Under the pieces are notes generated by a model. It searched no databases and was not told where the DNA came from. It saw nothing but the letters and a program-made list of their open reading frames with translations. The position numbers and the translations under genes are program-made. Shown piece by piece: positions 117-40,100 of a stretch of DNA of 64,000 nt (positions within the stretch are counted from its first letter, which is position 1; each line of letters opens with the position of its first letter). Source of the stretch: a virus; the IMG/VR virus record IMGVR_UViG_3300028844_003737, positions 10,388-74,387 of that record. One strand, written 5' to 3'.

Positions 117-776
117 ATGTTCGATATGATAAAAAGATTTTTCAAAAAACTAAATAAAAAGCTTAGAAAGAATACAGGAAACTCACTTGCTGAATTTGCT
201 GTTACTACCGCTATGATGGCAACACTTGCTACTACAGCTGCTCCTAAGTTTGGTAATGTTGGTGCTGCTGCTAAAGAGAAGAAGTCAATTGCTAACATTG
301 ATAAGATATTAACAGTAGCCAACAACTACTACAACCAAGCAGTATCTGAAGAAGGAAAGGGAAGATTTCCTGGACAATCAAAGTATGACCAACCTGTAGG
401 TGGGATTGACTTGTCAGATGGAGCATATACTGATGAAACTCTTGAAGCATACATTGAAACTATACTTGAACAAAAACAATCATATGAATCTGAATTAGGT
501 GAGTTTGTTTATGTATTTTCAGCATCTTCTGATGACGATGACGCTTTACAAGATGATTGGATGAACTTAGAAACATCTGTTGGATTCAATTCAGGTGGAG
601 CACTTGACTTCAAAAAAGACTTTGGTAACAAAGGAATCAAGTCACCATTTCAGGATGGTTCGTATGCTTACTTAGTAATACCAGGAAGTGGTAGTGGAAC
701 AGATGCTCAAGCACCTGCTCTTGTCGTAATAGACACAGAGAATCCAGGAATGCTATTTAAAACTTTAGTACCTTAA
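117..776 (+). CDS. type IV pilin/pseudopilin-like protein
   Basis: Basic leader, then G|NSLAEF (Glu at +5) and a hydrophobic helix ending APKF; RBS GGGAGG. Confidence 0.75.
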   Translation: MFDMIKRFFKKLNKKLRKNTGNSLAEFAVTTAMMATLATTAAPKFGNVGAAAKEKKSIANIDKILTVANNYYNQAVSEEGKGRFPGQSKYDQPVGGIDLSDGAYTDETLEAYIETILEQKQSYESELGEFVYVFSASSDDDDALQDDWMNLETSVGFNSGGALDFKKDFGNKGIKSPFQDGSYAYLVIPGSGSGTDAQAPALVVIDTENPGMLFKTLVP

Positions 777-811
777 TTTAATAATAGAAACAATAACCGA
801 AAGGAAAGAAA

Positions 812-1255
812 ATGAAGAACATACTCAAAAACACAAGTAAGGGTTTTACCTTGATTGAATTAGTAATGGTTACAATCATATTGGGAATCTTAGCGGCTGT
901 AGCAATACCTCGTTATCAACAGACTGTAGATAATGCGGAAGAAGCTGCAGAAAAGACATTTGTCGATATGGTATGGGCTGGATGTGAACAAGAAGCTTCT
1001 GAAAGAATAACTGAGACTGGACTTGAGGCATGGCCTTATAATCCACTAACAGTTATTGGTAGAAGTCGTAACATATCAGTTACATTGTTTGAAGGTGTAC
1101 CCGATGAAGATAACGAATGGCAGTTTAGTGTAGATGCGGCTGGTGAACCAGCAATATTTCATCACAGACGAAACGATGAAATCTATTACTACAAGTACGA
1201 TTCATTGACATTTGAGTTGGACGAACTACCTACGCTTTATACAAACGAAGGATAA
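812..1255 (+). CDS. type IV pilin (prepilin N-terminal cleavage/methylation domain)
   Basis: Canonical class III signal KG|FTLIELVMVTIILGILAAVAIPRY. Confidence 0.9.
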   Translation: MKNILKNTSKGFTLIELVMVTIILGILAAVAIPRYQQTVDNAEEAAEKTFVDMVWAGCEQEASERITETGLEAWPYNPLTVIGRSRNISVTLFEGVPDEDNEWQFSVDAAGEPAIFHHRRNDEIYYYKYDSLTFELDELPTLYTNEG

Positions 1256-8178: not shown

Positions 8179-9290
8179 ATGAAAAATAAAGTAAAGGGAA
8201 AAAGGTCACATGCCAACGAAGGAGAAAAAACAGAAGTGTTTGATTCCTGATTTAGAAATAATTCCTAAATTAGATCATATACTAACTGAAGAAGATGTAA
8301 AAGTATCATTATTAGAATTGAAGCGGAGAGTGGGTGCTCCAAAAATAAGTTTTAGGAAAAAGAGATGAGTGAATTAGAAGAGTCTGTATTGCGGAGCCAG
8401 ACAATTCTTATGATGGCTCGTAACGATAAAAATAGTAAGATGGTAAAAAGAATTCTAAAAAGATTTATGAAATTTGTAACTAGCAAATGAGGTTGTAATG
8501 TCAAAGAAAAACAAGAGTCAATGGAAAGACTATAAAACATACACACTTAGTGATGGTACTAAATTTTTAGCACGTGATGATAGTGATGCTAAATTGTATC
8601 GTTCAAAGGTCGGAGATGAAGGATAAATGTGTAGTCTGTAAAAAAGATTCTCATCACAATAAAGACGAACACATAAAAGTTCGTATCGGATACATCGAAG
8701 GTTCAGGACAATTATGCTTGAATTGTTATGATGATATTTATAATATAAAAAAAAGCAGAGGTAAAAATGATAATAAAAATAATAGTACCATACGCTACTG
8801 AAAGTTCATCTCAGACTTGTAGATATATGAGGTTTGACAGTGAATAAAAGTAAGTGTGAAGTTTTACAGACAGTAACTACTGTAGACGGAACTCTTTATG
8901 AGGGTGAAGTTGTTACTGTTCAAGACAAAGAAAAAAATGGCGATATAAGAGTCAAGGATACTATGGGAAAAATATGGTACATAAAAGATGATATTTTAAA
9001 GTCGATGGAAGGAAAATAAAATGACTAAATTTGAAGAAGTAATTCATAATCTTACCAACTTTATAGTTGGCGAACAGAAAGAAGAAGTAGAAGTGTCTGC
9101 TAAAATACAAGTAGGATTTACTGCTCCTAAAAAGAAACGAAAGTATACAAGAAGGAAGAAAGTCAATGCCAGCAAAAAGAAGTAGTGATAGAACACCTAA
9201 GATCATATCCTTACTAAAAAAAATGGAAAAACGATATGATATAATAGCTGAGTCTTTAGAAAAAATTGAGAAGAAATTGGAGAAAATAAA
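8179..9290 (+). other. cluster of short overlapping ORFs (about 40-62 aa), including 8616-8801 (Cys-rich) and 8834-9019 (SH3-like beta pattern)
   Basis: Consecutive small plus-strand ORFs with RBS-like motifs and stop/start overlaps. Confidence 0.5.
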
Positions 9291-9535
9291 TGAAAACAGC
9301 TAAATACTTTAGTGCTGTTTGGTGTGGGCCTTGTAAACAATTCAAGCCTATAATGGAAGAGTTATCTAATGAAGGATATAATATAGAGTTTATAGATGGT
9401 GATGAGAACAAACAAATGGCTATTGATGCTAATATTCGTTCAGTACCAACAACGCTTATTATGGATGGTGATAAAGAAGTAAATCGTATTGTCGGTGTGA
9501 GGAGTAAAGAAGAAATGATCAAGGAACTTTCATAA
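9290..9535 (+). CDS. trxA: thioredoxin
   Basis: FSAVWCGPCK active site; IRSVPT cis-Pro motif. Confidence 0.9.
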   Translation: MKTAKYFSAVWCGPCKQFKPIMEELSNEGYNIEFIDGDENKQMAIDANIRSVPTTLIMDGDKEVNRIVGVRSKEEMIKELS

Positions 9536-10128
9536 TGGTATTAGATAGTTTATTGGCTGGTGTAATGCTGTTCAGTTCTTTTGCTGCTCGTACGCCAAAT
9601 GTACAGCCCAATCCTGATGATTATGAAGTTAGTGTTGGAATAAGTAATGATAATTTTTATGCTAACAGACAATGGGAAAGAGAACTTGGCGAGTTCTATA
9701 TAGATGATTTGTTTTGGTATAAGTTTGACAATGGTATTTATTTCAAACCTGAGTATATGGATAAACAAAGTCAAGATGTAAGGTATCTCAAAATTGATGC
9801 AAGACGAAGTTTTAAAGATTGGTCTTTTGGTTTTACAAGTCGTAACACAAATAAAGATGTATTCAGTAGAAACTTCGTAACATTCGTATCCTTTGGTATG
9901 TCTAAAAAGAAAAAGTATTACAATGATAAAATAGAAGTTGAGGCTACATTTGATGGGTATTTTCCACCAAACGAAGAAGATGGTAGAGATGTATTTGAAT
10001 TTGAAGATAAATTCAAAGTATCATATAAAATAACAGAGAAACTTAGGTTGTATAACGTAGGTGAAATATCCAAACTTCAAGGTAACGAATTTTATAAGGC
10101 TAAGATAGGTTTTGAATATTCTTTGTAA
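9535..10128 (+). CDS. putative outer-membrane beta-barrel protein
   Basis: Signal-like N-terminus, alternating aromatic beta pattern, C-terminal KAKIGFEYSL resembling an OMP beta-signal. Confidence 0.5.
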   Translation: MVLDSLLAGVMLFSSFAARTPNVQPNPDDYEVSVGISNDNFYANRQWERELGEFYIDDLFWYKFDNGIYFKPEYMDKQSQDVRYLKIDARRSFKDWSFGFTSRNTNKDVFSRNFVTFVSFGMSKKKKYYNDKIEVEATFDGYFPPNEEDGRDVFEFEDKFKVSYKITEKLRLYNVGEISKLQGNEFYKAKIGFEYSL

Positions 10129-10164
10129 TTGATTATATTTATTAGTATCTAATGGAGAACTCAT

Positions 10165-10479
10165 GTGGGTGAAAAAGATTTGGTAACTAAAGATGCTAGA
10201 CAAAATCAAAAACATTTTATAAATGTAAAATTAGTAGATCTAATTGAATACAGACAATCACGAAAGTGGTATGTTAGTATTGCTGTTGTAGGTATGTTTG
10301 CTGTAATACTCATACTTATGATTTATTTTATGAGCCAAGGTAAAGATGTTACCGATGGATGGAAGGAAATTCTCTTACTAATGTTAGGTGGATTTGTTGG
10401 TTCATTTGCTAAGGTAATAGACTTCTGGTTCAATAATCAAGAGAATGATAATAAACTCTTAGAACACGCAGACGACTAA
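10165..10479 (+). CDS. two-TM membrane protein, holin candidate
   Basis: Two hydrophobic helices, LLLMLGGFVGSFAKVIDFWF; GTG start after GGAG; upstream of endolysin. Confidence 0.6.
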   Translation: MGEKDLVTKDARQNQKHFINVKLVDLIEYRQSRKWYVSIAVVGMFAVILILMIYFMSQGKDVTDGWKEILLLMLGGFVGSFAKVIDFWFNNQENDNKLLEHADD

Positions 10480-11132
10480 TGAATATTGCTACGTTAGCTG
10501 GTCATCTAGCATTTGGACTCATTGGTTTTTCATTCTTAGTCAAAGATATATTTTGGCTTAGAATGGTATCTATAGCTGCGAGTTTATTCTCAGTATTTTA
10601 TAACTACACCATTCCAACTGAACCAATGTGGTTAGCTATCAATTGGAACTTTATTTTTATCGCAGTAAATGCTTATCATATAGGAGTTATTTTATATGAG
10701 AAGCGAGCGGTAAAGATGGACTCTAAAAACGAAGAGTTATACCAAACCTTATTTAGTGAGATGACTCCAGTAGAATATCTAAAAGTTAGTAGAGCAGCTA
10801 AATGGGAGACAGTAAAATCAGGAGAACGGCTCATAACACAAGGTATGCCAGTTCCTGATTTGTATCTTATATATAATGGTACAGTAGATGTATTGGTTGA
10901 TAACAGCACAATAGCTCAACTAAAAGATGGAGAGTTTGTTGGTGAGATGTCTTTCCTCACAGAAAAAGTAGCTACAGCAACCTGTAAAGTAAAATACGAT
11001 GCAATATGTTTGGTTTGGAAACAAAGAGAATTTAAGGAATTACTAAAGCGTAATCCGTCACTATACTTTACTATACAATCTGTATTATCAGCGCAGGTAT
11101 CAGATAAGTTAGTAAGTAGTACAAAGAAATAG
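10479..11132 (+). CDS. Popeye-domain-like membrane protein with cyclic-nucleotide-binding domain
   Basis: Three N-terminal TMs (DIFWLR...WNFIFIAVN) then cNMP fold LITQG...LYLIYNGTVDV...GEFVGEMSFL...ATATC. Confidence 0.85.
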   Translation: MNIATLAGHLAFGLIGFSFLVKDIFWLRMVSIAASLFSVFYNYTIPTEPMWLAINWNFIFIAVNAYHIGVILYEKRAVKMDSKNEELYQTLFSEMTPVEYLKVSRAAKWETVKSGERLITQGMPVPDLYLIYNGTVDVLVDNSTIAQLKDGEFVGEMSFLTEKVATATCKVKYDAICLVWKQREFKELLKRNPSLYFTIQSVLSAQVSDKLVSSTKK

Positions 11133-11141
11133 GAGATAATA

Positions 11142-11618
11142 ATGTTGACTAAATTTGACGATATAATAGAAGTAGTATTACACCACGAAGGTGGTTATGT
11201 AAATGACCCAAAAGATCCTGGCGGAGAGACTAATTTTGGTATAGCTAAAAGAAGTCATCCTGATGTGGATATAAAAAATCTAACCAAAGAAGGTGCTAAA
11301 GAAATTTATTATGAAACATATTGGTGTGATAATAAAGTACCTCATATGCCAGAAAACCTAAAGCATATTTACTTTGATATGTGTGTTAACCAAGGTAGAG
11401 GGCGAGCAGTAAAGATATTACAGATAGCAGCTAACGCTAAAGGAGCAGATTTGAAAGTAGATGGTGGTATGGGTCCTAAAACTATCGCTGCTATGAGTGG
11501 AGTTGAGTTGGATAGAGTGAGAGCATATCGTGTTAAGTACTATGCTGATTTAGTTACCCGTAAACCAGATTTAGAAAAATTTTACTTTGGGTGGTTCAGA
11601 AGAGCACTGGAAGTTTAA
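11142..11618 (+). CDS. endolysin, glycoside hydrolase family 108
   Basis: HEGGYVNDPKDPGGETNFGI, YFDMCVNQG, VDGGMGPKT, FYFGWFRR. Confidence 0.92.
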   Translation: MLTKFDDIIEVVLHHEGGYVNDPKDPGGETNFGIAKRSHPDVDIKNLTKEGAKEIYYETYWCDNKVPHMPENLKHIYFDMCVNQGRGRAVKILQIAANAKGADLKVDGGMGPKTIAAMSGVELDRVRAYRVKYYADLVTRKPDLEKFYFGWFRRALEV

Positions 11619-11668
11619 TAAAAAAATAATTGTATATAAATAAAGTTTATGATATTTATATATAAGTT

Positions 11669-11862
11669 TCATACATACCAAAAGGATGGGGAGCATAGAT
11701 AGATAACAGGGGACAACAATTGTTTCAGACAGTGATGAGATACCCGCTCTACTTTTGGGAAGTATGACAAAAGAATTATGTTGCTCTATAAGAGAACATA
11801 TGTAAAACGAATATCAAGGTTCAAATGAAATTGATATTCATAGTTGACTAATGTAACTAAAA
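11669..11862 (+). promoter_or_regulatory. multi-hairpin structured leader or small RNA upstream of Hsp20
   Basis: TCATAC/GTATGA, CCAAAAG/CTTTTGG and GAGC/GCTC form a rod; further hairpins include GAATATCAA/TTGATATTC. Confidence 0.5.
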
Positions 11863-11875
11863 TAGGAGAAATAAA

Positions 11876-12349
11876 ATGACTAAAGTTACTTTACACGGAA
11901 TACCCGTAATCGATAGAGATTCCTTTCTAACACCCTTTGACAAAATGTTTGATGACATCATAGGAAAATCATTTCCTGAAATCAACAAGCAAGTCGGAGT
12001 AAATCCTTTTCAAGGTACAGCATACCCAAAAGTAAATGTATATGAATTTGATGAAAAGGTAGCCGTAATTGCTGAAATACCTGGTCTTGATAAGAAAGAC
12101 CTAAATGTTGAAGTTGAGGATGGCGTACTTACTATAGCTGGTGAAAAGCATAACGGATTGATTGATGAAGCTAAAGCTAAAGTTCTCAGAAGAGAATTGA
12201 AGCAATCATCTTTCAAACGATCTTTTACCTTGGGTGATCTATTAGATGGGGAAAGTATTACAGCAGACTTCAAAGATGGCATTCTATCCGTAGATATACC
12301 AAAGATAGAGCCCGAACTCCCAAAGAAGAATATTGTCAAAATTAGGTAA
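11876..12349 (+). CDS. small heat shock protein Hsp20/alpha-crystallin
   Basis: PKVNVYE, AEIPGLDKKDL, LTIAGEK, FKRSFTL, ADFKDGILSVDIPK. Confidence 0.95.
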   Translation: MTKVTLHGIPVIDRDSFLTPFDKMFDDIIGKSFPEINKQVGVNPFQGTAYPKVNVYEFDEKVAVIAEIPGLDKKDLNVEVEDGVLTIAGEKHNGLIDEAKAKVLRRELKQSSFKRSFTLGDLLDGESITADFKDGILSVDIPKIEPELPKKNIVKIR

Positions 12350-12539
12350 TAAACTTATTACCTTAGGCAATGACCTGTATATCGTTCTTGGAACGGTATC
12401 GGCATCTTCTGGTTTTACTGGTGAAAAAATTAAAAGTATGTGGAGATTAGCTGATACCGTTCTAAAGAACGGCTCAAATCACGATGAATTATATGTTTGT
12501 CAAAAAATACAAGAAGCTGAATATTTGGACATTAATTAG
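12333..12539 (+). CDS. hypothetical protein
   Basis: ORF overlapping Hsp20 end. Confidence 0.6.
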   Translation: MSKLGNKLITLGNDLYIVLGTVSASSGFTGEKIKSMWRLADTVLKNGSNHDELYVCQKIQEAEYLDIN

Positions 12540-12578
12540 GTTTTACATATTTATTACTAATAAATAGGAGATTACCCG

Positions 12579-13466
12579 ATGTTTGAATCATCAAAATCAT
12601 TTCATAAGTTAGTAGGATTTTCAGCATTAGCAATAGCTGGGAGCGCTGCTTTCTTTTCGGTTTTTGGGTTATCAAAATTATTTGCTGGTGCTCAATTTGC
12701 TGTAGTTATAATGGCTGGTTCATTAGAATTTGGTAAGTTAGTAGCAGCATCGTTTTTATATAGATATTGGGAAAGAATCAATATCATGCATAAAACTTAT
12801 ATGACAATAGCAACCATCATACTCGTACTGATAACATCTGCTGGCATATTTGGATTTTTATCCAATGCTTATCAAGGTGCTACAGTAGGATTTGAAAAGG
12901 AATCTACTGCATTGATATATAAGGAAGATAGGTTAGACCAATTACAAGATGACAAAAAATTTCTGAAAGAGGAATTAGAAGCAGCTGTAAGTGAACTACC
13001 TGAAAACTATCGTACTGCTAAAAGAAAACTAAGAGAAGAGTATCAACCAAAAATAAATCAAATCAATACTGATATGATGAATTTGAAGTCTGATATTGGA
13101 GATTTAAAAATAGCACTAGTAGAAACAGGAGTAGAAGTAGGACCAGCTATTTATTTAGCTAGGGTATTCGACACCGATGTAGATACAGTAGTGAAATTTT
13201 TTATCTTTGTTCTTATCTTTGTTTTTGATCCAATGGCAGTTCTTTTTGTTATTAGTTACAATGTTATTTTAGAAAAAGATAATATTACACCTACACCAAA
13301 AAAGAAAAATAAAAAAAGATGGTGGGAAGTATATGGTGAAAGTGCTAAACAAAAAAAGAAAGAATGGAAAGATAACATAAAATCTACAGTTAGTAACGAT
13401 GAACGATTCGATACAAAACCTAAAGAAGACCCTGTCCAATCAAGACAAGGAAGAAAAATAATATAA
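12579..13466 (+). CDS. membrane protein with coiled coil (phage hypothetical)
   Basis: Three N-terminal TMs, coiled coil, C-terminal TM with IFVFDPMA; RBS AGGAG. Confidence 0.8.
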   Translation: MFESSKSFHKLVGFSALAIAGSAAFFSVFGLSKLFAGAQFAVVIMAGSLEFGKLVAASFLYRYWERINIMHKTYMTIATIILVLITSAGIFGFLSNAYQGATVGFEKESTALIYKEDRLDQLQDDKKFLKEELEAAVSELPENYRTAKRKLREEYQPKINQINTDMMNLKSDIGDLKIALVETGVEVGPAIYLARVFDTDVDTVVKFFIFVLIFVFDPMAVLFVISYNVILEKDNITPTPKKKNKKRWWEVYGESAKQKKKEWKDNIKSTVSNDERFDTKPKEDPVQSRQGRKII

Positions 13467-13472
13467 AAAAAA

Positions 13473-13525
13473 CTGGAAATAAATGCATAAAGTCCTTGAC
13501 TTGCATTGCATTTTAATGTTAGCTT
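13473..13525 (+). promoter_or_regulatory. repeated early promoter
   Basis: Same CTGGAAATAAATGCATAAAGTCC upstream block; TTGACT(13496)-N18-TAGCTT(13520). Confidence 0.75.
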
Positions 13526-13548
13526 TAGACATAATGCGGAGACAATAT

Positions 13549-14079
13549 ATGATAAAAACAAAAACAGCAATTACTGCTGTAGTAGCAGTAACTTTAGTAA
13601 ACGGAATTTTTTCGACTAATATGTTTGAGTCTTACAAAAATATGTACTCAGGTAAGATAGAACATTTAGAGAAAGAAAATCAGATTCTAAAAGATGAACT
13701 ATCTCATTATGATGAATATGGTATTGTAGTAGATGTAACTATGTATCAACCAAATACTATTCAATGTGATGATACGCCAGACGTTACTGCTGATGGAACT
13801 AAGATTCGTATCAGTAAAGCATCAGATTATAAGTTTGTTGCTTTATCCCGTAACTTACTAAAACGATGGGGTGGGCCTTTTGATTATGGTGATTTTATAT
13901 TACTCAAAGGTGCTGACAAAAAAAGTGGTGTATACCAAGTAAGAGATACTATGAATCCTAAATGGGTAAATGTAGTAGATATTTTAGAATCAGAGCATGT
14001 AGAACCTTACAAATATACAGATGCTCATATATTTAAATTGAACTGGATAACAAACAAAAAGGAAACAACGAATGGCTAA
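13549..14079 (+). CDS. 3D-domain (MltA-like) peptidoglycan hydrolase with N-terminal anchor
   Basis: VTMY...TADG...VALSR...VRDTM...VDIL; start moved to ATG after GGAG. Confidence 0.75.
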   Translation: MIKTKTAITAVVAVTLVNGIFSTNMFESYKNMYSGKIEHLEKENQILKDELSHYDEYGIVVDVTMYQPNTIQCDDTPDVTADGTKIRISKASDYKFVALSRNLLKRWGGPFDYGDFILLKGADKKSGVYQVRDTMNPKWVNVVDILESEHVEPYKYTDAHIFKLNWITNKKETTNG

Positions 14080-18166: not shown

Positions 18167-19117
18167 ATGGTAATGAATATAGGATATGCTTGTATCAACA
18201 TGCAATTGTCGTACCCACAAAAATATGGTGGTCAACCTAAAGGTGTAAAGCCGATAACTACTGGTAGGAGTATGATAAAACGAACATTTCTATCTAAGGG
18301 TGTAGACTATGCTAGTGAACTTACACTAGCCAATGCTATGGACTTAGATAAGATTATGGATTGGAATATACTGAATGGGTACAATTTCTTTCGTATCACA
18401 TCAGGCCTCGCACCTTGGAAGTCTGAGTATGAATGGGATGACTTGAAAGATATTGAAAAGATTAGACAATACTTACACTCTGCTGGCGTGAAAGCTAAAA
18501 CTCATAATATTCGTATCACATCTCATCCAGGTCCTTTCAATGTACTTACATCGCCACATCCGCATGTAGTTGAAAATTGTATTGGTGATTTGACTGACCA
18601 TGCTGCTACATTTGATATGATGGGACTAAGTGAGACGCCATACAACAAAATCAATATTCATATTGGCGGTGCTTATGGAGATAAAGAATCAGCTATGAAG
18701 AGATTCTGTGAAAACTTCAAAATGTTACCAAAATCTGTACAGAGTAGACTAACAGTAGAAAACGATGACAAAGCTAGTATGTATTCAGTTAGGGATTTGT
18801 ATGATGGTGTTTACAAAGTAATTGGTATTCCTATCGTATTTGATTACCACCACCATCAGTTTTGTACAGGCGATTTATCAGAACAACAAGCTTTGGAGTT
18901 GGCTATATCAACTTGGCCTGATGGTATCACACCAGCTACTCACTATTCAGAGAGTAGACGAGATGAACAGAAAGATGAGACTATCAGAGTTCAAGCTCAT
19001 TCAGATTATGTTTTACAAAAAATCAATACTTATGGTAATGAGATTGATGTTATGGTAGAAGCTAAACACAAAGAACTAGCAGTAGAAAAATATAAGGAAT
19101 TACATATGGGGCTGTAG
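18167..19117 (+). CDS. uvsE: UV DNA damage endonuclease
   Basis: IGYACIN, FFRITS, SHPGPF, NIHIGG, RLTVENDD, FDYHHH, HYSES, AHSD, MVEAKHKE. Confidence 0.95.
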   Translation: MVMNIGYACINMQLSYPQKYGGQPKGVKPITTGRSMIKRTFLSKGVDYASELTLANAMDLDKIMDWNILNGYNFFRITSGLAPWKSEYEWDDLKDIEKIRQYLHSAGVKAKTHNIRITSHPGPFNVLTSPHPHVVENCIGDLTDHAATFDMMGLSETPYNKINIHIGGAYGDKESAMKRFCENFKMLPKSVQSRLTVENDDKASMYSVRDLYDGVYKVIGIPIVFDYHHHQFCTGDLSEQQALELAISTWPDGITPATHYSESRRDEQKDETIRVQAHSDYVLQKINTYGNEIDVMVEAKHKELAVEKYKELHMGL

Positions 19118-19180
19118 CTCAGTTGGGAGAGCGCTTCCCTTGCACGGAAGAAGTCGCAGGTTCGATCCCTGTCAGCTCCA
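19108..19180 (+). tRNA. tRNA-Ala(TGC)
   Basis: Full cloverleaf, G3:U70 identity pair, anticodon loop CT-TGC-AC, TTCGATC T-loop; CCA not encoded. Confidence 0.95.
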
Positions 19181-19186
19181 CATATT

Positions 19187-20256: not shown

Positions 20257-20328
20257 GCGGGTGAAGTGTTATAGGAAACACACTTCGATACCATCGAAGA
20301 GATGTAGGTTCGACTCCCACCACCCGCT
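20257..20328 (+). tRNA. tRNA-Gly with ACC anticodon
   Basis: Acceptor GCGGGTG/CACCCGC with U73; D stem GTGT/ACAC; anticodon stem CTTCG/CGAAG, loop AT-ACC-AT; 4-nt variable loop; TTCGACT T-loop; one T-stem mismatch. Confidence 0.85.
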
Positions 20329-20390
20329 CAAACTTTCGGCCATCAAAGGCTATTTACTAATTACTAATTGAATATTTATAGGAAAATGTT

Positions 20391-26334: not shown

Positions 26335-26600
26335 TGATGATTCTGGAAATAATCCTTGTATTATTGGCACTTTTATGTGTAGCTTCTTGTTATGGATTAT
26401 GGAACACTATGAAAAAGATGGAAATGATGGAAGATTGGATAGATGAATATAGTACGAGAATGTTGAATGTAAACAAAACCATAAAACAACTTGACTATAA
26501 AGATTACTTTGCTGAAGATGATGAGGTAGGAATTATATTCAAAGAAATAGAAAAAGCAGTTAATGAACTAGAAATAGAAAAGGAGCCTGTAAGTGGGTAG
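26334..26600 (+). CDS. membrane-anchored hypothetical protein
   Basis: N-terminal TM, coiled coil, DDEVG. Confidence 0.7.
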   Translation: MMILEIILVLLALLCVASCYGLWNTMKKMEMMEDWIDEYSTRMLNVNKTIKQLDYKDYFAEDDEVGIIFKEIEKAVNELEIEKEPVSG

Positions 26601-27354
26601 AAAAGCAAAAAAAGGAAGTAGTAGATATTACTTCACAATGGATACTGAAAAAGCAATTATCAGATACAATAATGCACCAGACAAACCTAGATTGAGAAAT
26701 ACGATATACAATGAGCATATCAGAAAGTCTTTTGAAAAGTTAGTTGAGAACATTATTCATACATTTAAGTTCTACTACTTTGATGTATCGTCTGAAGAAG
26801 TAAAGCATGAAGTCGTTTCTTTCTTAGTAATGAACATGCATAAATTCAAAGAGGGTAAAGGTAGGGCATTCTCTTATTTTAGCATTGTTGCTAAAAATTA
26901 CCTTATCCTAAATAATAATAAAAACTATAAGATGGGTAAGATTCATTCACAAATGGATGTATTAGATTATAAGAGAAATACACAAAGTGAAAGGTCTGCT
27001 GAGGCTGCTAGTGAAAGTGCTTCTTTATTTATAGATGAGTTACATAGGTTTTGGGATACCAACCTTACTAATGTTTTCAAACGACAAAAAGACATTAGGG
27101 TAGCTGATTCTGTATTACATATTTTTCGTATAAAAGAAAATATTGAGAACTTCAATAAGAAGGCTCTTTATATTCTTATTCGTGAAATGACAGGCTCTAA
27201 TACACAGCACATTACTCGTATTATCAATGTTATGAAAAAGTTCAATGATAGGTTATATCATGAGTTTGATAACTATGGTACAGTTGATATTTCATATACA
27301 GGCTCTTTAGTAAGAGAAAAAGATAATCCATTGGATATACAAGCTACTTACTAA
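26593..27354 (+). CDS. phage sigma factor (sigma70 region 2, gp55-like late sigma)
   Basis: KLVENIIHTFKF...EVVSFL..MHKF..GKGRAFSYFSIVAKNY resembles sigma region 2.1-2.4; GTG start after AGGAG. Confidence 0.7.
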   Translation: MGRKAKKGSSRYYFTMDTEKAIIRYNNAPDKPRLRNTIYNEHIRKSFEKLVENIIHTFKFYYFDVSSEEVKHEVVSFLVMNMHKFKEGKGRAFSYFSIVAKNYLILNNNKNYKMGKIHSQMDVLDYKRNTQSERSAEAASESASLFIDELHRFWDTNLTNVFKRQKDIRVADSVLHIFRIKENIENFNKKALYILIREMTGSNTQHITRIINVMKKFNDRLYHEFDNYGTVDISYTGSLVREKDNPLDIQATY

Positions 27355-33791: not shown

Positions 33792-34106
33792 ATGCCATAT
33801 ACAAAAGAGCAGCTTCAGAAAAATGAGTATTACCAAAATCTCAAAGATGCTGATGAACAAGCGTATTTAGCACAAAGAGAATATTATAAAACTCAATTTT
33901 ATGATAGTCCAGAATTTGGTTCTAACGATGGAAGTTTAGTTGTAAGAGATACAAATGGAACTATGTTATTATTTGAAGATCCTTATAGTGGTGTATTATA
34001 TGATGACGAAACTACAGTAATAGTAAAAAATCTCAGTACACCACAATATAGAATAAATGATGAAATATTAGATGAAGTAATAGATAGAGATATAACGGAA
34101 TTATAA
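33792..34106 (+). CDS. hypothetical structural protein
   Basis: ORF coupled to both neighbours. Confidence 0.7.
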   Translation: MPYTKEQLQKNEYYQNLKDADEQAYLAQREYYKTQFYDSPEFGSNDGSLVVRDTNGTMLLFEDPYSGVLYDDETTVIVKNLSTPQYRINDEILDEVIDRDITEL

Positions 34107-37100
34107 TGTCAAGTAAACTAACAAATATAGATAAGCAATTACTAGATGCTGGTAATGAAATTCGTATAGGTAATAAGCCTTATGAAAATGGAATTTTTGG
34201 ATCAAATCCAAATAGAGATACTATTGAACTTACTATATTCAATACAAGCGGAGGACTTATAGATTCTATCACTAAATCTTTTAGTGATATACAATTTGAT
34301 AACGATGATAAATTATTACTAAGGCCGGTTGCTGATTTAACTTTAGCTGGATTAGAATCTGGAACATATGATTTACAATATAGATTTCTTAGAAAGTTAG
34401 CAGGTAGTGAAGATGATGTGCTAGTTCGTACTGTTCCTAATGAACAAGGAAAATTTGATATTTTTGAAGATGTTGAATCAATAGATATAACAGATGATGG
34501 TAAAATATTTGAAAAAATAGGTAGTGACAGAGGACAAGAACTACAGCTAAAGAAGATGACTCTATTAGTGGATGCTGTCTCACCATCAAGAACAGAAATA
34601 CGGATAAAGGCTTCAGATGTAAATGGAAGAGGTAATTTTGAAGATTTTTCTAGATTAGGAGAATCTGTACGGAGAACAGAAGTTCCAACTGGCATAGTTC
34701 AATTTGGTACTGGTGGTGATGAAAATTTCATTACAAATACAAATGTTATGACTCTTACTCCTGAAGATGGTGGGTTTATATTTACACCTCGTATGGTAGG
34801 TGGTACTCTTTATGTAAAAGATGTATACCATACTTCGACTATAACTACTACTCCAACTACTGAAAATAATATAGTAACAGATCAAGAACAACTAAGAAAA
34901 GATGATTACGGCGAAGTTATAAAATATGGAGAATCTTTACCTTGGGATAGCAACTTACACGCAAACGCAGTAAGACCATTAGGCGATTGGAGTGCAGGAT
35001 ATTTACAATGGTATGCTAACAGTGAATTATGGGGCAACTCAACTCATTTAGGGTATTGGGGACATTGGGTTCAAGGAGAAGGTCGTGATGGTGGTGTATG
35101 TTTTAAATTTCCTGATATAAATCAATCTTTTGCTGAGGACTTTACTGCGTGGCCATTAGAAAATCCACATAGAGGTTTGATGTTATCTCATACCTTTAAA
35201 GATAAAAGTTTAGAGGTATTGGGTGTAACAGGCGAAGATAGTATTTTGATATCAGGATACATAAAGTCTAATGTCAATAATAAACAAATAAGAATTACAA
35301 CTAAGTTCCCACAAGATTTATTATCTGAAGCGGAACCTGATAGCCCGCCAGAAGGATTTTTTGTAGAGGGTAGTCCTTTATTAGAAGAAAAGCCATCATC
35401 TCCTCCTGATAATTACAATCCCCTAACAATTGAAGCAGCTCAGTCAATAGAAAATGTTCCAGCTATAGCTATAATGGAAAATGGATATTCGACTGGAATG
35501 AATATTACAGCGTTTTTAAATGCGAGGGAAGGTTACGGGTGGAGTGTTGGACAGACGCCTAATGTTGCTACTGGTAATGACAGTACCCAACTAAATCGTA
35601 AGTCTCCACCAAGACCAGCCACTTATGGAACAGGAGTTTGGAAACTTCATATAGAAACAGACCAATCAGAAGCCGTAATTAGTTTAGAACTCAATCACTC
35701 TTGGGGTGATGCAAACGGATACAGTAACGGTGCTGGTACACTTAGTGAAGGTGGAGATTGGAAATGGGACGGAGAACAATGGACTGGATACCCAATAGCT
35801 ACTGAAGTAGAACCTATAGTTGGTCATGATTCTAATGGTGGGGTATATAGAACTGTAAATCCAAACCAATTTCCTACGGCTGTAAATGCACACCCTTACA
35901 GACAAAGCGAAGAATTAGTTCAGACTAGAAGGCCGTTATTTGAAAGGTCTTTACCATCATCTACTGGATTTGAGTATGGGTGTACGATAGGAAAGGCATT
36001 TTATGCGTGGTTATTAGATGGACGTTGGGAAGTAAATAGTACCATTATTAACAGAGGAGATATTTCTGTTAAATATGTTATGCTTGGTAAACAAGACTTA
36101 ATTTGGATAACAAAAGTTAATCAATCAAGCTCAGATAAAGTATTACTTCGTACGTGGGATGAAGTATTTCCTCAATTGAGAACAAGCTATATAGATAGAG
36201 AAGTCGATGGTGAAACTAAACAAGTAAGTATTTATGAAGATATATTTGAATTTGGATTTGTACAAAGTATAGTACCGGCACAGCATAGAAATAAAAATGT
36301 TACTGTAATGGGCAGTTTTCATATATTCTATAATGATGGAAATGGAAATAATAAATCTTTTAGAGTTGATACGTTTAGATCTGGTACGAATACAATTAGC
36401 TCAACACTTTCTAATAATACTATTTATCCAAACATAGGAAGTGATAGAGTATATAATATACGCGATTTAGATGAACCATTTGATAATACTATAAATGATA
36501 ATGATTCTAAGGTAAAGTGGACTGTAAATAGGGACGATGGAGATTTTAGATTTTATGCTTTCGTAGGAAACCAATATTACAGAGTCGATGATGGAGATGG
36601 AGATCTTTACGAAATAAATGAGAGTGATTCTAATTGGTTTAAAGATGACTATCCAAGAACAATAAATGAAGATGGCTTTGAAGATTTTATTCAAAATCCT
36701 GATGTTGTATTTGAAAGAGATTTAACACCAAATGAAAGCGATTGGACAAAATGGGGTATTATAAAAGGTAGCCAATACTATAAACAAGAAGATGATAAGC
36801 ATGTACTGATATCTACCTTTGATGAAGCCTTTATAGGAGCTGGTACAGTACAGAGTGGTGGTGAAGAACTTGTAGTTGGTACTAGAAATCCTGGAAAAGA
36901 TAATTGGTTATTAGATGATGAAGGTAATACTTTACCTAATGTACCATATATTGATAATGGAAGTGGAAATTTAATAATCGGAATGACATCCGATAGAATT
37001 GGTACGGTAAGTCCTGAAGAACAATGGATTTGGACAGGACCAGATGATGCTAGTTCCGTACACTATTGGAAATATTCAGGTCCTATGCCACCACAATATA

Positions 37101-40100
37101 GTTTTGCCAGACCAACAAGCGGTGATTATGCTAAATTCATAGAAAATGTAACAGCAAATGAATGGGAAAGGTTTGAAGTTGCTGTACCTGTTCATCCTAA
37201 TTGGAGATTGGGTGTTCCTGGATGGCAAGTTGTCTTTGAAGGAAATATAGGATCTAAACCTGGCATAGTATGGATGGATGATATTGATGTTAGATTTAGG
37301 TTGGATAGTCAATCTGTTGATCAATTAGTAAAAAAGCCATTTGTTGCTCAAATAAGTTCTGTAAATGAAACTGGAACACTGGTGGAATTAGATAAAACTT
37401 TTGAGGATGGAGCAATTGAAGTTAGCGATGATGATGATCCAGCAAATGCTTATTATCAAGATGGTGCTCAAGCAGGATCTTATACTGGATTTGAAGTAAC
37501 ATATACTATATTCAATCCAAGAGAACTTAGAACTTATTTGAAATTTGGAAACAATCATTATCTAACAACAAACTTTAGACAAGATAGAGCATCAGTTATA
37601 AAATGGCCACATTCTATAAATTTTAAAACTTACGAACCTTTACCACCAAGTATACAAAAGTTTTCCGAAGTTACAGTTGTAAAGGAAATGATTGAGCCAC
37701 TATCCGAAACCGTTAGAATTGTAAATTTTACAGACAGTCCTCTTGGAGATAGACTACTAAAGAGTCCTGATTTGAACAATGTAGACAGTCCTTTACAAAG
37801 AAGAACTACACAATTCAAAAATGAATCAGAAATTCTAACATCGGATTCAATAGTTTCAGCTGAACTTAAAAACAAAATAGTTTCTGCTAGTACAGATAGT
37901 GCTGAAATAAATGTTGACTACAGCAGATATGAAAATTTTAATAATTTTGGTTCCGTTGAGAGAAGAATTGAAAACTTCAAATATAAATTAGAACTAATTG
38001 AAAGTTATAACGCATCAAGTGCGTCTTTAGTTTCTATTTCAGGTTCTGGCGATAATAGAGATTTGTGGTTACAAAGAACAAATGAACTAAAAAATGACTT
38101 TGATGGATTTGAAAATTATATGTATCATATTAGTTCATCATATGTTAGCAGTTCATTGGGGCAATTTTATGATAATGCGTGGCCGAAAGTTAGTGGTGCT
38201 GGAACTTTAACAAGTCCATATGTATTAGCACACACTACTTCTTCACAAGCAACTACTTGGTTTGAAAAAAATGTAGTTTCGGCATCTTTATTCGATGAAG
38301 AGAATGGTAATAAATTAAGTGGGTTGTTACCACAGCATATAATTGACGATAACAGCAACACAGATTATCTAAAATTTACTGATATGATAGCACATCATTT
38401 TGATAATATATGGATTTACATAAAAGGATTGAGTGACACTTTTGATAGAAGAGATAAATTAGATGAAGGACTTTCTAAAGATTTATTATATAGTGTAGGT
38501 AGGTCTTTGGGATGGAATTTAAATGATAGTTCGGATACAGTTGAGTTATCCAGATTTCATTCAGGACACGAAGTATCAGGTTCAAGTTTATCTGTTTACT
38601 CTGAGGTTTCTCAGAAAGATATAACAAGAGAAATTTGGGGTCGTATAATAAACAACATGCCTTTCTTTCTAAAAAATAAAGGTACTGTAAAAGCATTGAA
38701 AGGACTCATAAATATTTATGGTATACCATCAACAATATTGAGAGTAAAGGAATATGGGGGTCCCGCTATATCAGATGATGAAGCACCACAATTTGAGATA
38801 ACAAGAAAATTTACAAAAGCATTAGATTTTAGGTCAAGTCAATTTGTAAAAGTAGCTTGGGCAAATGATACTGATTCGGAAAGAAAGCCTGATACTATAG
38901 AGTTTAGATTTAGAGCAGTCAGTAGTTCTAATCAAGTATTGGTAGAAAAGATAGGTAGTGACTTTACATCTAGCTTCAACATTAGTTTAAAAGATAATAA
39001 TTCCGCTGACAATTATGGTTATGTCGCATTTACCCTATCAGGCTCAGATGGTCAAAAACAGGTTCAAAGTGGTGAACTTCCTATATATGATGGAGATTTT
39101 TATTCTGTGATGTTGAGGAGAACTTCAGGCTCAGATTCAGCTGAGGTAACTCAATCATTTCAATTATCTGTTGGTAAATATGATTCTAGTAGAAGTAAGA
39201 TACATCTGTTTTCTGCAGCTACTATGTCTACAGATATTGCTGATTCAGGATCTTATAATCTTGCTTATGCTAATAATGGTACAATATTTATCGGTGGTGC
39301 TTCAAACACTACAAGAGGAGCTGCTTCTCAGACTGGCTCTTTTGGTGGTCAACTATCAGGTTCTATGATGGAGTATAGACATTGGACTGAAACATTGGGT
39401 GTAAAACAATTCAAAAATCATGTGGCTAATCCACAAGCATATAATGGAAATACTATATCATCATCATATGATAATTTAGTTTTGAGATACTCAATGAATG
39501 ATAACAAAGATTTGAGTTCTGATACTGGTGGGATTAGAGATGTAAGTTCAAATCAAACAGCAACATTGTCAGGATCACATAGTGGATTTACTGGTAACTT
39601 TTTCAGTAATGTTGTTGATGAATTACAATCTCATATACCAAGTATAGGTGCTTTGAGAAGAACTACTAAGAAAATACGAATAGAATCAAATAATATAAAA
39701 GATGGTCAGATTTTACAGAGAACTAAAAGAGTTACTAATAGTCAATATGATACAGCAGCTAATGACTCTAATAAATTAGGTATATTTTTTGCTCCTACTG
39801 ATGTTATAAATAATGATATTATACAATCTGTGGGTGATTTGAATTTTGAAAATTACTTAGGAGACCCAAGAGATAGGTTAGAAAATAGCTACAGAGGTCT
39901 AAAAGGTGTTGCTGATAATTACTGGCAAAAATACACCGAACCAAATAATTTTTGGGACTATATTAGATTACTGAAATACTACGATTCTTCTTTATTTCCA
40001 CAACTTAGAAAACTAATTCCTGCTAGAGCAAAAGCTGATATTGGAATATTAATTGAGCCAAATATATTTGAAAGGTCTAAGGTTGTAGCAGGAAAAGAAC

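What the first reader, a model, noticed from the sequence alone, without database searches (positions are those of the whole stretch)
10135..11618. cNMP-binding Popeye-like membrane protein between a holin candidate and the endolysin
Seen: late motif, then a 2-TM holin-like gene, a TAATG overlap into a 3-TM plus cyclic-nucleotide-binding protein, and 9 bp later a GH108 endolysin. Known: Popeye-domain proteins are membrane cAMP effectors; cAMP reports carbon status and cCMP/cUMP are Pycsar defence signals. Inference: lysis timing may be gated by host cyclic nucleotide through an antiholin-like sensor, or the protein is a membrane-tethered sink for defence messengers. I know of no described lysis module with this layout.
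Basis: partly seen in the sequence, partly recalled or inferred. Interest (0 to 1): 0.8.

Follow-up and report, generated by a model that had tools for sequence, protein, structure and literature searches.

The report
Popeye-like sensor protein beside phage lysis genes
An uncultured marine phage carries a bacterial-type membrane protein with a cyclic-nucleotide-binding-like domain between a holin-like gene and its endolysin; the gene is real, conserved and late-expressed, but it is an optional, mobile gene and a role in timing lysis remains an inference.

Summary
An upstream ATATTTAT motif is followed by a 2-TM gene (10165-10479), then by a TAATG overlap into a 217-aa protein with three TM helices and a cNMP-binding fold (10479-11132). 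Nine bases later comes a GH108 endolysin (11142-11618).

The middle protein belongs to a widespread bacterial family that Pfam's POPDC1-3 and cNMP_binding models both recognise. Phage copies form one clade under strong purifying selection.

Two caveats apply:
- **Missing motifs.** The whole family lacks the canonical phosphate-binding Arg (Ala165 here) and the animal DSPE/FQVT motifs. The binding cassette is nevertheless its most conserved stretch.
- **Rare exact layout.** The three-gene layout occurs in only 7 of 60 related loci. The gene sits in a variable slot that can be empty or hold another gene.

It still keeps turning up beside lysis-type genes. These are a TM-anchored SLT transglycosylase (19 loci) and a PHROG holin or the 2-TM protein (19 more). 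It always lies behind the same late-type motif.

A ligand-responsive modulator of lysis or envelope proteins is my best guess (about 0.35). A defence-messenger sink is less likely. Other first readers of this scan noted the same architecture on other genomes.

The parts
10135..10142 (+). ATATTTAT upstream motif (putative late-class promoter element), 30 nt before the 2-TM gene
   Evidence: 16 + strand copies in the window. 9-10 lie 19-54 nt upstream of + strand gene starts, including structural genes, and the motif is 13.6-fold enriched in upstream gaps. The same motif heads the POP-containing operon in other arrangements.
10165..10479 (+). 2-TM holin-like protein (104 aa; N-in/C-in by charge distribution; virus-only family)
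   Evidence: Hydrophobic segments 33-60 and 69-87. Only unknown-function PHROGs 1544/9990 match, and no Pfam family. Nearest Atlas clusters are all viral. In 46 of 80 loci a PHROG-3427 holin lies within the ±4-kb flank. In L173 a distant relative (27% identity) lies 2 nt upstream of GH108.
10479..11132 (+). POP: membrane protein with three TM helices and a CNB-fold domain (Popeye-like architecture); binding cassette GEMSFLTEKVATAT has Ala165 in place of the canonical Arg
   Evidence: PF00027 and PF04831 hits. AF2 model with pLDDT 90. Foldseek hits to CNB domains. PDB alignment shows the Arg-to-Ala change. Family alignment A1. dN/dS 0.08-0.12.
11142..11618 (+). GH108 endolysin with PG_binding_3 domain; no signal peptide or TM segment, so it needs a holin-type exit
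   Evidence: PF05838 7e-25, PF09374 5.9e-11, PHROG 315 endolysin 3e-48. No hydrophobic segment.
9535..10128 (+). Upstream backbone gene (197 aa, hydrophobic N-terminus that reads like a signal peptide, no family hit); marks the left edge of the variable slot
   Evidence: No Pfam or PHROG hit. The 19-residue hydropathy scan found no TM segment, so the signal peptide is read by eye. In L154, L169 and L181 its homologue abuts GH108 directly, with no 2-TM gene and no POP.

Best explanation
POP is an accessory, late-expressed inner-membrane sensor that this group of uncultured marine myoviruses acquired once from bacteria. Its three TM helices sit in the cytoplasmic membrane with the N-terminus outside. 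Its CNB-fold domain faces the cytoplasm and binds a small ligand, probably nucleotide-derived, through a non-canonical cassette without the Arg. POP has no enzymatic or DNA-binding output. Ligand binding can therefore only act through the TM bundle on neighbouring membrane proteins. The most likely targets are the lysis and envelope proteins it is co-transcribed with: the 2-TM holin-like protein, the 3-TM PHROG holin, or TM-anchored transglycosylases. In that way it would tune when or whether the membrane is permeabilised for the GH108 endolysin.

Shown: architecture, family membership, conservation, late-type operon context, repeated adjacency to lysis-type genes, and dispensability.

Inferred: the ligand, the membrane partners, and any effect on lysis timing.
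For: - Operon structure: the TAATG overlap with the 2-TM gene, a 9-nt gap to GH108 and no terminator-like site, behind the motif that also precedes structural genes.
- Neighbours: 45 of 60 related loci have a lysis-type gene within three genes of POP. The split is 7 2TM-POP-GH108, 19 SLT-POP (ATGA overlap, gap -4 in 15 of the 19) and 19 near the PHROG-3427 holin and/or the 2-TM gene.
- Phylogeny: on the POP tree the 2TM-POP-GH108 block appears in at least three separate places. 2TM-POP adjacency reaches the basal branch.
- Partner gene: a holin-family gene (PHROG 3427) lies near the 2-TM gene in 46 of 80 loci. A distant relative abuts GH108 in L173.
- Selection: dN/dS is 0.08-0.12. The binding cassette is the most conserved 12-residue stretch of the family, entropy 1.32 against a mean of 2.21. 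This argues for a maintained ligand site.
- Cellular relatives: some lie next to a CHASE2-class III nucleotide cyclase (2 loci), a 2H phosphoesterase (4 loci) or MltG/YceG lytic transglycosylase (5 of 20 loci).
- Charge distribution puts the CNB domain in the cytoplasm (read from the sequence and the helices).
Against: - The exact layout is rare (7/60 loci; 6/80 GH108 loci). GH108 usually lies in unrelated neighbourhoods.
- In a 126-kb relative POP is 50 kb from GH108 and 19 kb from SLT.
- 15 of 60 loci show no lysis-type neighbour. The commonest upstream neighbour is a secreted Trx-fold protein of an envelope/pilin island.
- The slot between the 2-TM gene and GH108 can be empty or hold an unrelated gene. 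Adjacency may therefore reflect an insertion hotspot.
- The POP TM region shows no homology to the 2-TM protein or the holin (hhalign probability <1%).
- Most cellular homologues sit in non-lysis contexts.
- The canonical Arg is absent.
- No binding, interaction or lysis experiment exists.
Confidence: 0.35

Rival explanations
1. POP is an envelope or host-physiology accessory gene unrelated to lysis. It is the last gene of a late envelope-remodelling operon: a beta-barrel-like protein, a lipoprotein, an MshEN-motif protein and a Trx-fold protein, followed by pilin-like genes. In this reading it modulates a host membrane channel, transporter or pilus function. Its nearness to lysis genes would reflect a shared hyper-plastic region.
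For: The commonest upstream neighbour is the secreted Trx-fold protein c2 (23 of 60 loci), inside the c6-c5-c3-c2-POP operon behind one late motif. Pilin-like N_methyl genes follow in some loci. In the window's own genome that island lies upstream and at the window start without POP, so POP moves between sites. The 2TM/GH108 slot holds alternative cargo. Cellular homologues sit in many contexts.
Against: Three non-homologous lysis-type partners recur next to POP (GH108, SLT, and the holin or 2-TM gene), often with translational coupling. The 2TM-POP-GH108 block persists across POP divergence down to 68% identity.
Confidence: 0.3
2. POP is a membrane-tethered sink or decoy for cyclic-nucleotide immune messengers, such as the cCMP/cUMP of Pycsar. 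It would lower free messenger and so protect the infection.
For: The CNB domain scores 3e-15 against PADLOC PycTIR/Effector models and 1.5e-7 against the PycTIR structure 8jsk. No cyclase or GGDEF gene was found in five large related phage contigs, so any ligand would come from the host.
Against: - The PycTIR score equals the generic PF00027 score, and no PycTM-type hit covers the TM region.
- A late-type promoter is a poor fit for a counter-defence that must act early.
- The Arg that gives canonical CNB domains high affinity is missing.
- A 1:1 sponge gains nothing from three conserved TM helices with invariant R28, W56 and N64.
- The family is common in bacteria outside defence contexts.
Confidence: 0.12
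3. The CNB-like domain does not bind a cyclic nucleotide at all. It could bind another metabolite, or work ligand-free as an oligomerising scaffold as in CNB-homology domains. POP would then be a constitutive membrane adaptor.
For: Arg-to-Ala/Ser at the phosphate-binding position occurs in every phage and cellular member examined. The animal DSPE/FQVT motifs are also absent (PMC6562197).
Against: The cassette GxFxGEMSFLT...ASAT is the best-conserved stretch of the family and keeps the ribose-contacting Glu156. Animal POPDC proteins bind cAMP without that Arg (PMC6562197). Some cellular members are adjacent to a nucleotide cyclase or a 2H phosphoesterase.
Confidence: 0.15

Closest known systems
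Animal Popeye-domain proteins (POPDC1/BVES, POPDC2, POPDC3; Pfam PF04831)
   Same: Same architecture: a short extracellular N-terminus, three TM helices, then a cytoplasmic CNB-fold domain with no catalytic or DNA-binding output. The Pfam POPDC1-3 model matches above its cut-off for all 53 phage and bacterial members tested. Both lack the canonical cassette Arg.
   Different: The invariant FL/IDSPEW/F and FQVT/S motifs that define cAMP binding in POPDC (PMC6562197) are replaced by F-x-GEMSF and ASAT(V). The phage protein has no long C-terminal tail. It comes from prokaryotes and phages. Its partners are unknown.
Canonical bacterial/eukaryotic CNB domains (CRP, PKA-R, PKG, HCN, MloK1/SthK)
   Same: Same beta-roll fold (Foldseek E about 1e-9). 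Conserved Gly134, Gly155 and Glu156 of the phosphate-binding cassette.
   Different: The Arg that pairs with the cyclic phosphate is Ala165. There is no HTH, kinase or channel output, only a three-helix membrane anchor.
Antiholins and lysis-timing regulators (T4 RI/RIII, lambda S107, P1 LydB)
   Same: A membrane protein encoded in a lysis gene cluster that could modulate a holin. It is dispensable and variable between relatives.
   Different: There is no sequence or profile similarity to the local holin-like proteins. No known antiholin carries a cytoplasmic ligand-binding domain of this kind, to my knowledge and in the literature searched.
Pycsar effectors (PycTM, PycTIR)
   Same: A CNB domain fused to another module. 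The CNB domain is similar to that of PycTIR (3e-15).
   Different: No PycTM model matches. No cognate cyclase lies beside it in phages. Cellular members are mostly not in defence-like contexts.

Membership tests
cNMP_binding (PF00027) CNB domain | HMM match above the gathering score and the eight-stranded beta-roll fold | tested here: met
   54.8 bits against a cut-off of 27.5. AF2 pLDDT 90 with beta-roll at 108-181. Foldseek matches to HCN2, CRP and PKA.
cNMP_binding (PF00027) CNB domain | Phosphate-binding cassette G-E-...-R-[ST]-A, with the Arg contacting the cyclic phosphate | tested here: not met
   Gly155 and Glu156 are present but the Arg position is Ala165 (VATAT against PRTAS). It is Ala or Ser in all family members examined.
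cNMP_binding (PF00027) CNB domain | Actual binding of a cyclic nucleotide | not testable with these tools
   Indirect evidence only. The cassette is the most conserved stretch. Some cellular members have a cyclase or a 2H phosphoesterase as neighbour.
POPDC1-3 (PF04831, Popeye) | Pfam model above cut-off, covering the TM region plus the CNB domain | tested here: met
   50.8 bits against a cut-off of 28.1, residues 7-216. 53 of 53 family members match.
POPDC1-3 (PF04831, Popeye) | Three TM helices N-terminal to a cytoplasmic CNB-type domain | tested here: met
   AF2 helices at 3-18, 24-44 and 51-75. Positive charges in loop 19-28 and after helix 3 place the CNB domain inside (sequence).
POPDC1-3 (PF04831, Popeye) | Invariant DSPE and FQVT motifs of the cAMP pocket | tested here: not met
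   The motifs are defined in PMC6562197. The phage and bacterial family has GEMS and ASAT at the corresponding places.
Holin (for the 2-TM gene 10165-10479) | Small phage membrane protein with one or more TM segments and a charged C-terminus, encoded beside the endolysin | tested here: met
   104 aa with two TM segments and an acidic C-terminal tail. It lies one gene from GH108 here. A distant relative (27% identity) directly abuts GH108 in L173.
Holin (for the 2-TM gene 10165-10479) | Homology to a described holin family | tested here: not met
   No Pfam hit reaches its cut-off. Only unknown-function PHROGs match. hhalign against the local PHROG-3427 holin gives probability 0.1%.
Holin (for the 2-TM gene 10165-10479) | Lethal membrane permeabilisation that releases endolysin | not testable with these tools
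   Needs expression assays.
GH108 endolysin | Glyco_hydro_108 catalytic domain plus a PG-binding domain | tested here: met
   PF05838 7e-25, PF09374 5.9e-11, PHROG 315 3e-48. The EGGY motif at residues 16-19 is visible in the translation. That this motif holds the catalytic Glu is my own knowledge of GH108.
Pycsar effector (PycTM/PycTIR) | Match to an effector model over the effector (TM or TIR) module, and an adjacent PycC cyclase | tested here: not met
   PADLOC hits cover only the CNB part (residues about 105-208). No class III cyclase was found in five related phage contigs.

The most novel reading that the evidence does not exclude
POP is a ligand-gated lysis regulator. It would be a cytoplasmic cyclic-nucleotide (or related nucleotide) sensor whose TM bundle holds or releases holin-type proteins. 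The phage would then time lysis by the host's second-messenger or metabolic state. That would be a new class of antiholin-like control. It would also give the prokaryotic relatives of animal Popeye proteins a first function.
Probability: 0.25. Interest if true: 0.85.

Novelty: new variant of a known kind. Interest (0 to 1): 0.6.

Why it matters
- **Lysis timing.** It is a key life-history trait of phages. Known regulators sense superinfection or membrane energisation, not a cytoplasmic small molecule. A CNB-type sensor wired into holin/endolysin genes would be a new input.
- **Ecology.** The gene is abundant in marine viromes. There are at least 59 IMG/VR loci and many near-identical metagenome proteins, so any function would matter ecologically.
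- **Evolution of Popeye proteins.** The data show a sizeable bacterial family with the Popeye architecture. It was found in about 3.5% of sampled Pseudomonadota and about 2% of sampled Acidobacteriota genomes. It is recognised by the POPDC Pfam model but has a hybrid binding cassette. Reviews describe the Popeye domain as unique to POPDC proteins (PMC6562197). This family could show how Arg-less CNB domains bind ligand.

Tried and rejected
- **T4-type late promoter.** There is no + strand TATAAATA upstream of the cassette. The real recurrent motif is ATATTTAT.
- **T4-like pelagimyophage identity.** Only an 86-nt endolysin DNA match to HTVC008M was found. The baseplate wedge is closest to Microcystis phage Mel-JY01 (48%) and Flavobacterium phage immuto (41%). 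The host remains unknown.
- **SAR11 origin.** One 'Candidatus Pelagibacter TMED166' MAG contig carries the gene. No match was found in 150 other Pelagibacterales genomes searched, so that contig is probably a binned phage contig.
- **POP TM region as a holin derivative.** hhalign against the 2-TM and PHROG-3427 families gave probability below 1%.
- **Phage-encoded cyclase or GGDEF partner.** None was found in five contigs of 74-165 kb. These contigs are fragments, so absence is not shown.
- **Searches without a positive control.** The PF11351 search and the protein searches for the holin and the 2-TM gene in large contigs returned nothing. They are uninformative.
- **Searches that failed.** The distant viral relative P0122 was not found in IMG/VR. 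The profile-based locus search failed because the alignment was too diverse.
- Contexts of metagenome homologues could not be read that way.
- **Literature.** A search for Mel-JY01 returned no paper.
- **RNA libraries.** Contigs from two metatranscriptome runs of one study cover the 2TM/POP junction. DNA carry-over cannot be excluded, so this is not evidence of transcription.
- **Sigma-70 scan.** It found fewer promoter-like sites than in shuffled sequence.

Full report
**What is in the window.** ORF calling and the raw sequence confirm the layout.
- A 104-aa ORF runs from 10165 to 10479. It has a GTG start with GGAG 7 nt upstream.
- Its stop overlaps the start of a 217-aa ORF (10479-11132) in TAATG.
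- After a 9-nt spacer containing GGAG, a 158-aa ORF follows (11142-11618).
- No terminator-like site lies in 8800-12600.

Family searches identify the three products.
- The third protein is a GH108 endolysin: PF05838 at 7e-25, PF09374 at 5.9e-11 and PHROG 315 at 3e-48.
- The middle protein matches cNMP_binding (9.4e-15) and POPDC1-3 (2.5e-13).
- The first protein has two hydrophobic segments and matches only unknown-function PHROGs.

**The 'late motif'.** T4's TATAAATA is absent upstream of the cassette. The word ATATTTAT at 10135 is real and recurrent.
- 9-10 of its 16 + strand copies lie 19-54 nt before gene starts. Examples are 12547, 20372, 27440, 29726 (baseplate block), 40970, 49539 (3598-aa ORF) and 62781.
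- A distinct motif, GTAGCTTTATAT, precedes the CobT-like and CobS-like genes and others.
- The genome has a gp55-like late sigma homologue at about 26600-27350.
- Calling the motif 'late' rests on the genes that follow it. It is an inference.

**The phage.** The window is part of a 74-kb IMG/VR contig, estimated 40% complete, with 33.7% GC.
- Its baseplate wedge is closest to Microcystis phage Mel-JY01 (48%) and Flavobacterium phage immuto (41%). T4-like phages are not among the hits.
- No deposited phage genome encodes a relative of POP or of the 2-TM protein.
- The host is unknown. One Pelagibacter MAG carries a 72-kb contig of this phage group. No match was found in 150 other Pelagibacterales genomes searched.

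**The POP protein.**
- *Structure.* AlphaFold2 with a 53-sequence alignment gives mean pLDDT 90. It shows helices at 3-18, 24-44 and 51-75, then a CNB beta-roll and a long C-terminal helix. Foldseek finds HCN, CRP, PKA and MloK1 CNB domains.
- *Topology.* Positive charges in loop 19-28 and after helix 3 place the CNB domain in the cytoplasm, with the N-terminus outside.
- *Binding cassette.* phmmer alignments to PKG and PKA show that the cassette keeps Gly155 and Glu156. The phosphate-binding Arg is Ala165: VATAT against PRTAS. This holds for the whole family, phage and cellular, whose consensus is GxFxGEMSFLTxxxASATV.
- *Animal motifs.* The DSPE and FQVT motifs of animal POPDC proteins (PMC6562197) are also absent.
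- *Conservation.* The cassette is still the most conserved 12-residue stretch of the family. The next most conserved are the helix1-helix2 loop KDIxWLR and the start of helix 3. Invariant or nearly invariant residues in the membrane part are R28, W51, W56 and N64, so that part looks functional too.
- *Selection.* Phage copies evolve at dN/dS 0.08-0.12.

**Family range.**
- A search of 1.84 billion representative proteins finds 111 clusters at E<1e-30. Nearly all are 205-240 aa and full length.
- Named members come from Gemmatimonadota and Bdellovibrio MAGs.
- 14 of 400 sampled Pseudomonadota genomes carry a full-length homologue.
- So do 7 of 301 sampled Acidobacteriota genomes. One of those seven, G710, is unpublished and was used only in this count.
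- All 53 aligned members hit both PF00027 and PF04831.
- Phage POPs form one clade relative to five cellular outgroups.

**Cellular neighbourhoods (20 loci).**
- Five Pseudomonadota loci have MltG/YceG within two genes. Four of them share the order fabF-mltG-2H phosphoesterase-POP. One more distant genome has a different arrangement.
- Two loci have a CHASE2-class III nucleotide cyclase immediately adjacent on the same strand.
- These loci come from few lineages, so they are hints only. They point to a cyclic-phosphate ligand and, weakly, to peptidoglycan-cleaving enzymes.

**Synteny in phages.** 59 IMG/VR loci encode POP at 68-89% identity. I clustered their neighbours and annotated representatives. 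With the window that makes 60 loci:

| Arrangement | Loci |
|---|---|
| 2TM-POP-GH108 | 7 |
| POP directly after a TM-anchored SLT transglycosylase | 19 |
| POP within three genes of a PHROG-3427 holin (1.5e-25) and/or the 2-TM gene | 19 |
| No lysis-type gene within three genes | 15 |

- In 15 of the 19 SLT loci the two genes overlap in ATGA.
- In the last group POP ends an operon of exported proteins, next to pilin-like or nuclease genes.
- In most arrangements where an exact copy was found, the ATATTTAT motif heads the operon holding POP.
- In the window's own genome the exported-protein island lies just upstream and at the window start, without POP.
- In a 126-kb relative, POP, GH108 and SLT are 19-50 kb apart.

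**Views from the other two genes.**
- Among the 80 closest GH108 loci, only 6 have POP upstream. Most sit in unrelated neighbourhoods.
- On the shared GH108-Hsp20-orf295 backbone, the slot left of GH108 varies:
  - orf197-2TM-POP;
  - 2TM-POP;
  - 2TM alone (L173, 2-nt gap);
  - 2TM plus an unrelated 105-aa gene (L120);
  - nothing (L154, L169, L181).
- Among 80 loci found with the 2-TM protein, 46 have the PHROG-3427 holin nearby, 24 have POP and 5 have GH108.
- The 2-TM family is virus-only.
- On the POP tree the SLT context is one clade. The 2TM-POP-GH108 block occurs in at least three separate places, and 2TM-POP adjacency reaches the basal branch.

**Interpretation.** POP is a real, selected, late-class accessory gene of bacterial origin.
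- It has no output domain. Any signal must pass through its conserved TM bundle to other membrane proteins.
- The recurring partners are three non-homologous lysis-type genes, often translationally coupled. This makes a lysis or envelope modulator the best single guess (0.35).
- The evidence is contextual, and the slot behaves like an insertion hotspot. An unrelated envelope accessory gene is almost as likely (0.30).
- The messenger-sink idea fits poorly, for three reasons:
  - the late-type promoter;
  - the conserved membrane part;
  - similarity to PycTIR only at the generic level.
- The missing Arg means cNMP binding must be shown, not assumed. The conserved cassette, the precedent of Arg-less POPDC proteins and the cyclase and phosphoesterase neighbours keep a nucleotide ligand plausible.

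**Other evidence.**
- The stretch occurs in marine metagenomes from at least 11 studies.
- Contigs from two metatranscriptome runs of one study span the 2TM/POP junction. DNA carry-over is not excluded.
- Literature searches found no CNB-domain protein described in a phage lysis cassette.
- Other first readers of this scan noted the same architecture on other genomes, including the missing Arg. Those notes are unchecked. They agree with what I tested here.

Noticed in passing
window 3509, 5846, 17488, 19588, 22391 (+ strand): A second conserved upstream block, (AAATTTATTC)GTAGCTTTATAT(A/G)TA, lies 20-35 nt before the CobT-like gene, the CobS-like gene and three other non-structural genes. It is probably the early or middle promoter class, distinct from ATATTTAT.
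   Followed up: partly
G000 upstream of the window and window 117-1255; relatives L010, L013 and others: An island of exported proteins: a 430-aa beta-barrel-like protein, a lipoprotein, a protein with an MshEN-like RLGxxLLxxDIIxxxxLxxxLxxQ motif, a secreted thioredoxin-fold protein without CxxC, then pilin-like N_methyl proteins. In many relatives POP is the last gene of this operon.
   Followed up: partly
window 13483-14079 against G156 (L078 3731-4300): Downstream of Hsp20-orf295 the window has a 198-aa protein that I read by eye as TM-anchored with a 3D/MltA-like motif (no Pfam hit above 0.05; PHROG 21574, function unknown). A relative has a TM-anchored SLT transglycosylase at about that position, possibly an alternative cell-wall enzyme in one slot.
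   Followed up: no
L062 / G001 contig C6 (NHHP01000001.1, 71,886 bp): A contig binned in the MAG 'Candidatus Pelagibacter sp. TMED166' carries POP (88% identity) and the 2-TM gene (94%). It looks like a phage contig of this group. It is either mis-binned or a hint at the host.
   Followed up: partly
L120 3673-3990: An unrelated 105-aa soluble protein occupies the slot between the 2-TM gene and GH108 where POP sits in the window (ATGA overlap with the 2-TM gene). The slot takes alternative cargo.
   Followed up: no
L099 2552-4756 and L100 1868-4258 (cellular loci): In two Pseudomonadota genomes a CHASE2-class III nucleotide cyclase lies directly next to the POP homologue on the same strand. In four others a 2H phosphoesterase lies between mltG and the POP homologue. 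In three genomes POP paralogues sit side by side.
   Followed up: partly
window 20257-20329: ARAGORN calls a tRNA-Gly with anticodon ACC, an unusual A34 anticodon, beside a tRNA-Ala(TGC) at 19108-19181.
   Followed up: no
window 34106-40945 and 49566-60362: Two giant ORFs of 2279 and 3598 aa lie in the structural region. The second follows an ATATTTAT motif.
   Followed up: no
2-TM family, e.g. L043 4675-5001, L173 3666-3998: The 2-TM family has two subtypes sharing the motif LLxxxLGxFxxxFxKxIDFWF. One has an acidic C-terminal tail (the window type) and one a basic tail (KKKxK). Both occur immediately upstream of POP or GH108.
   Followed up: partly
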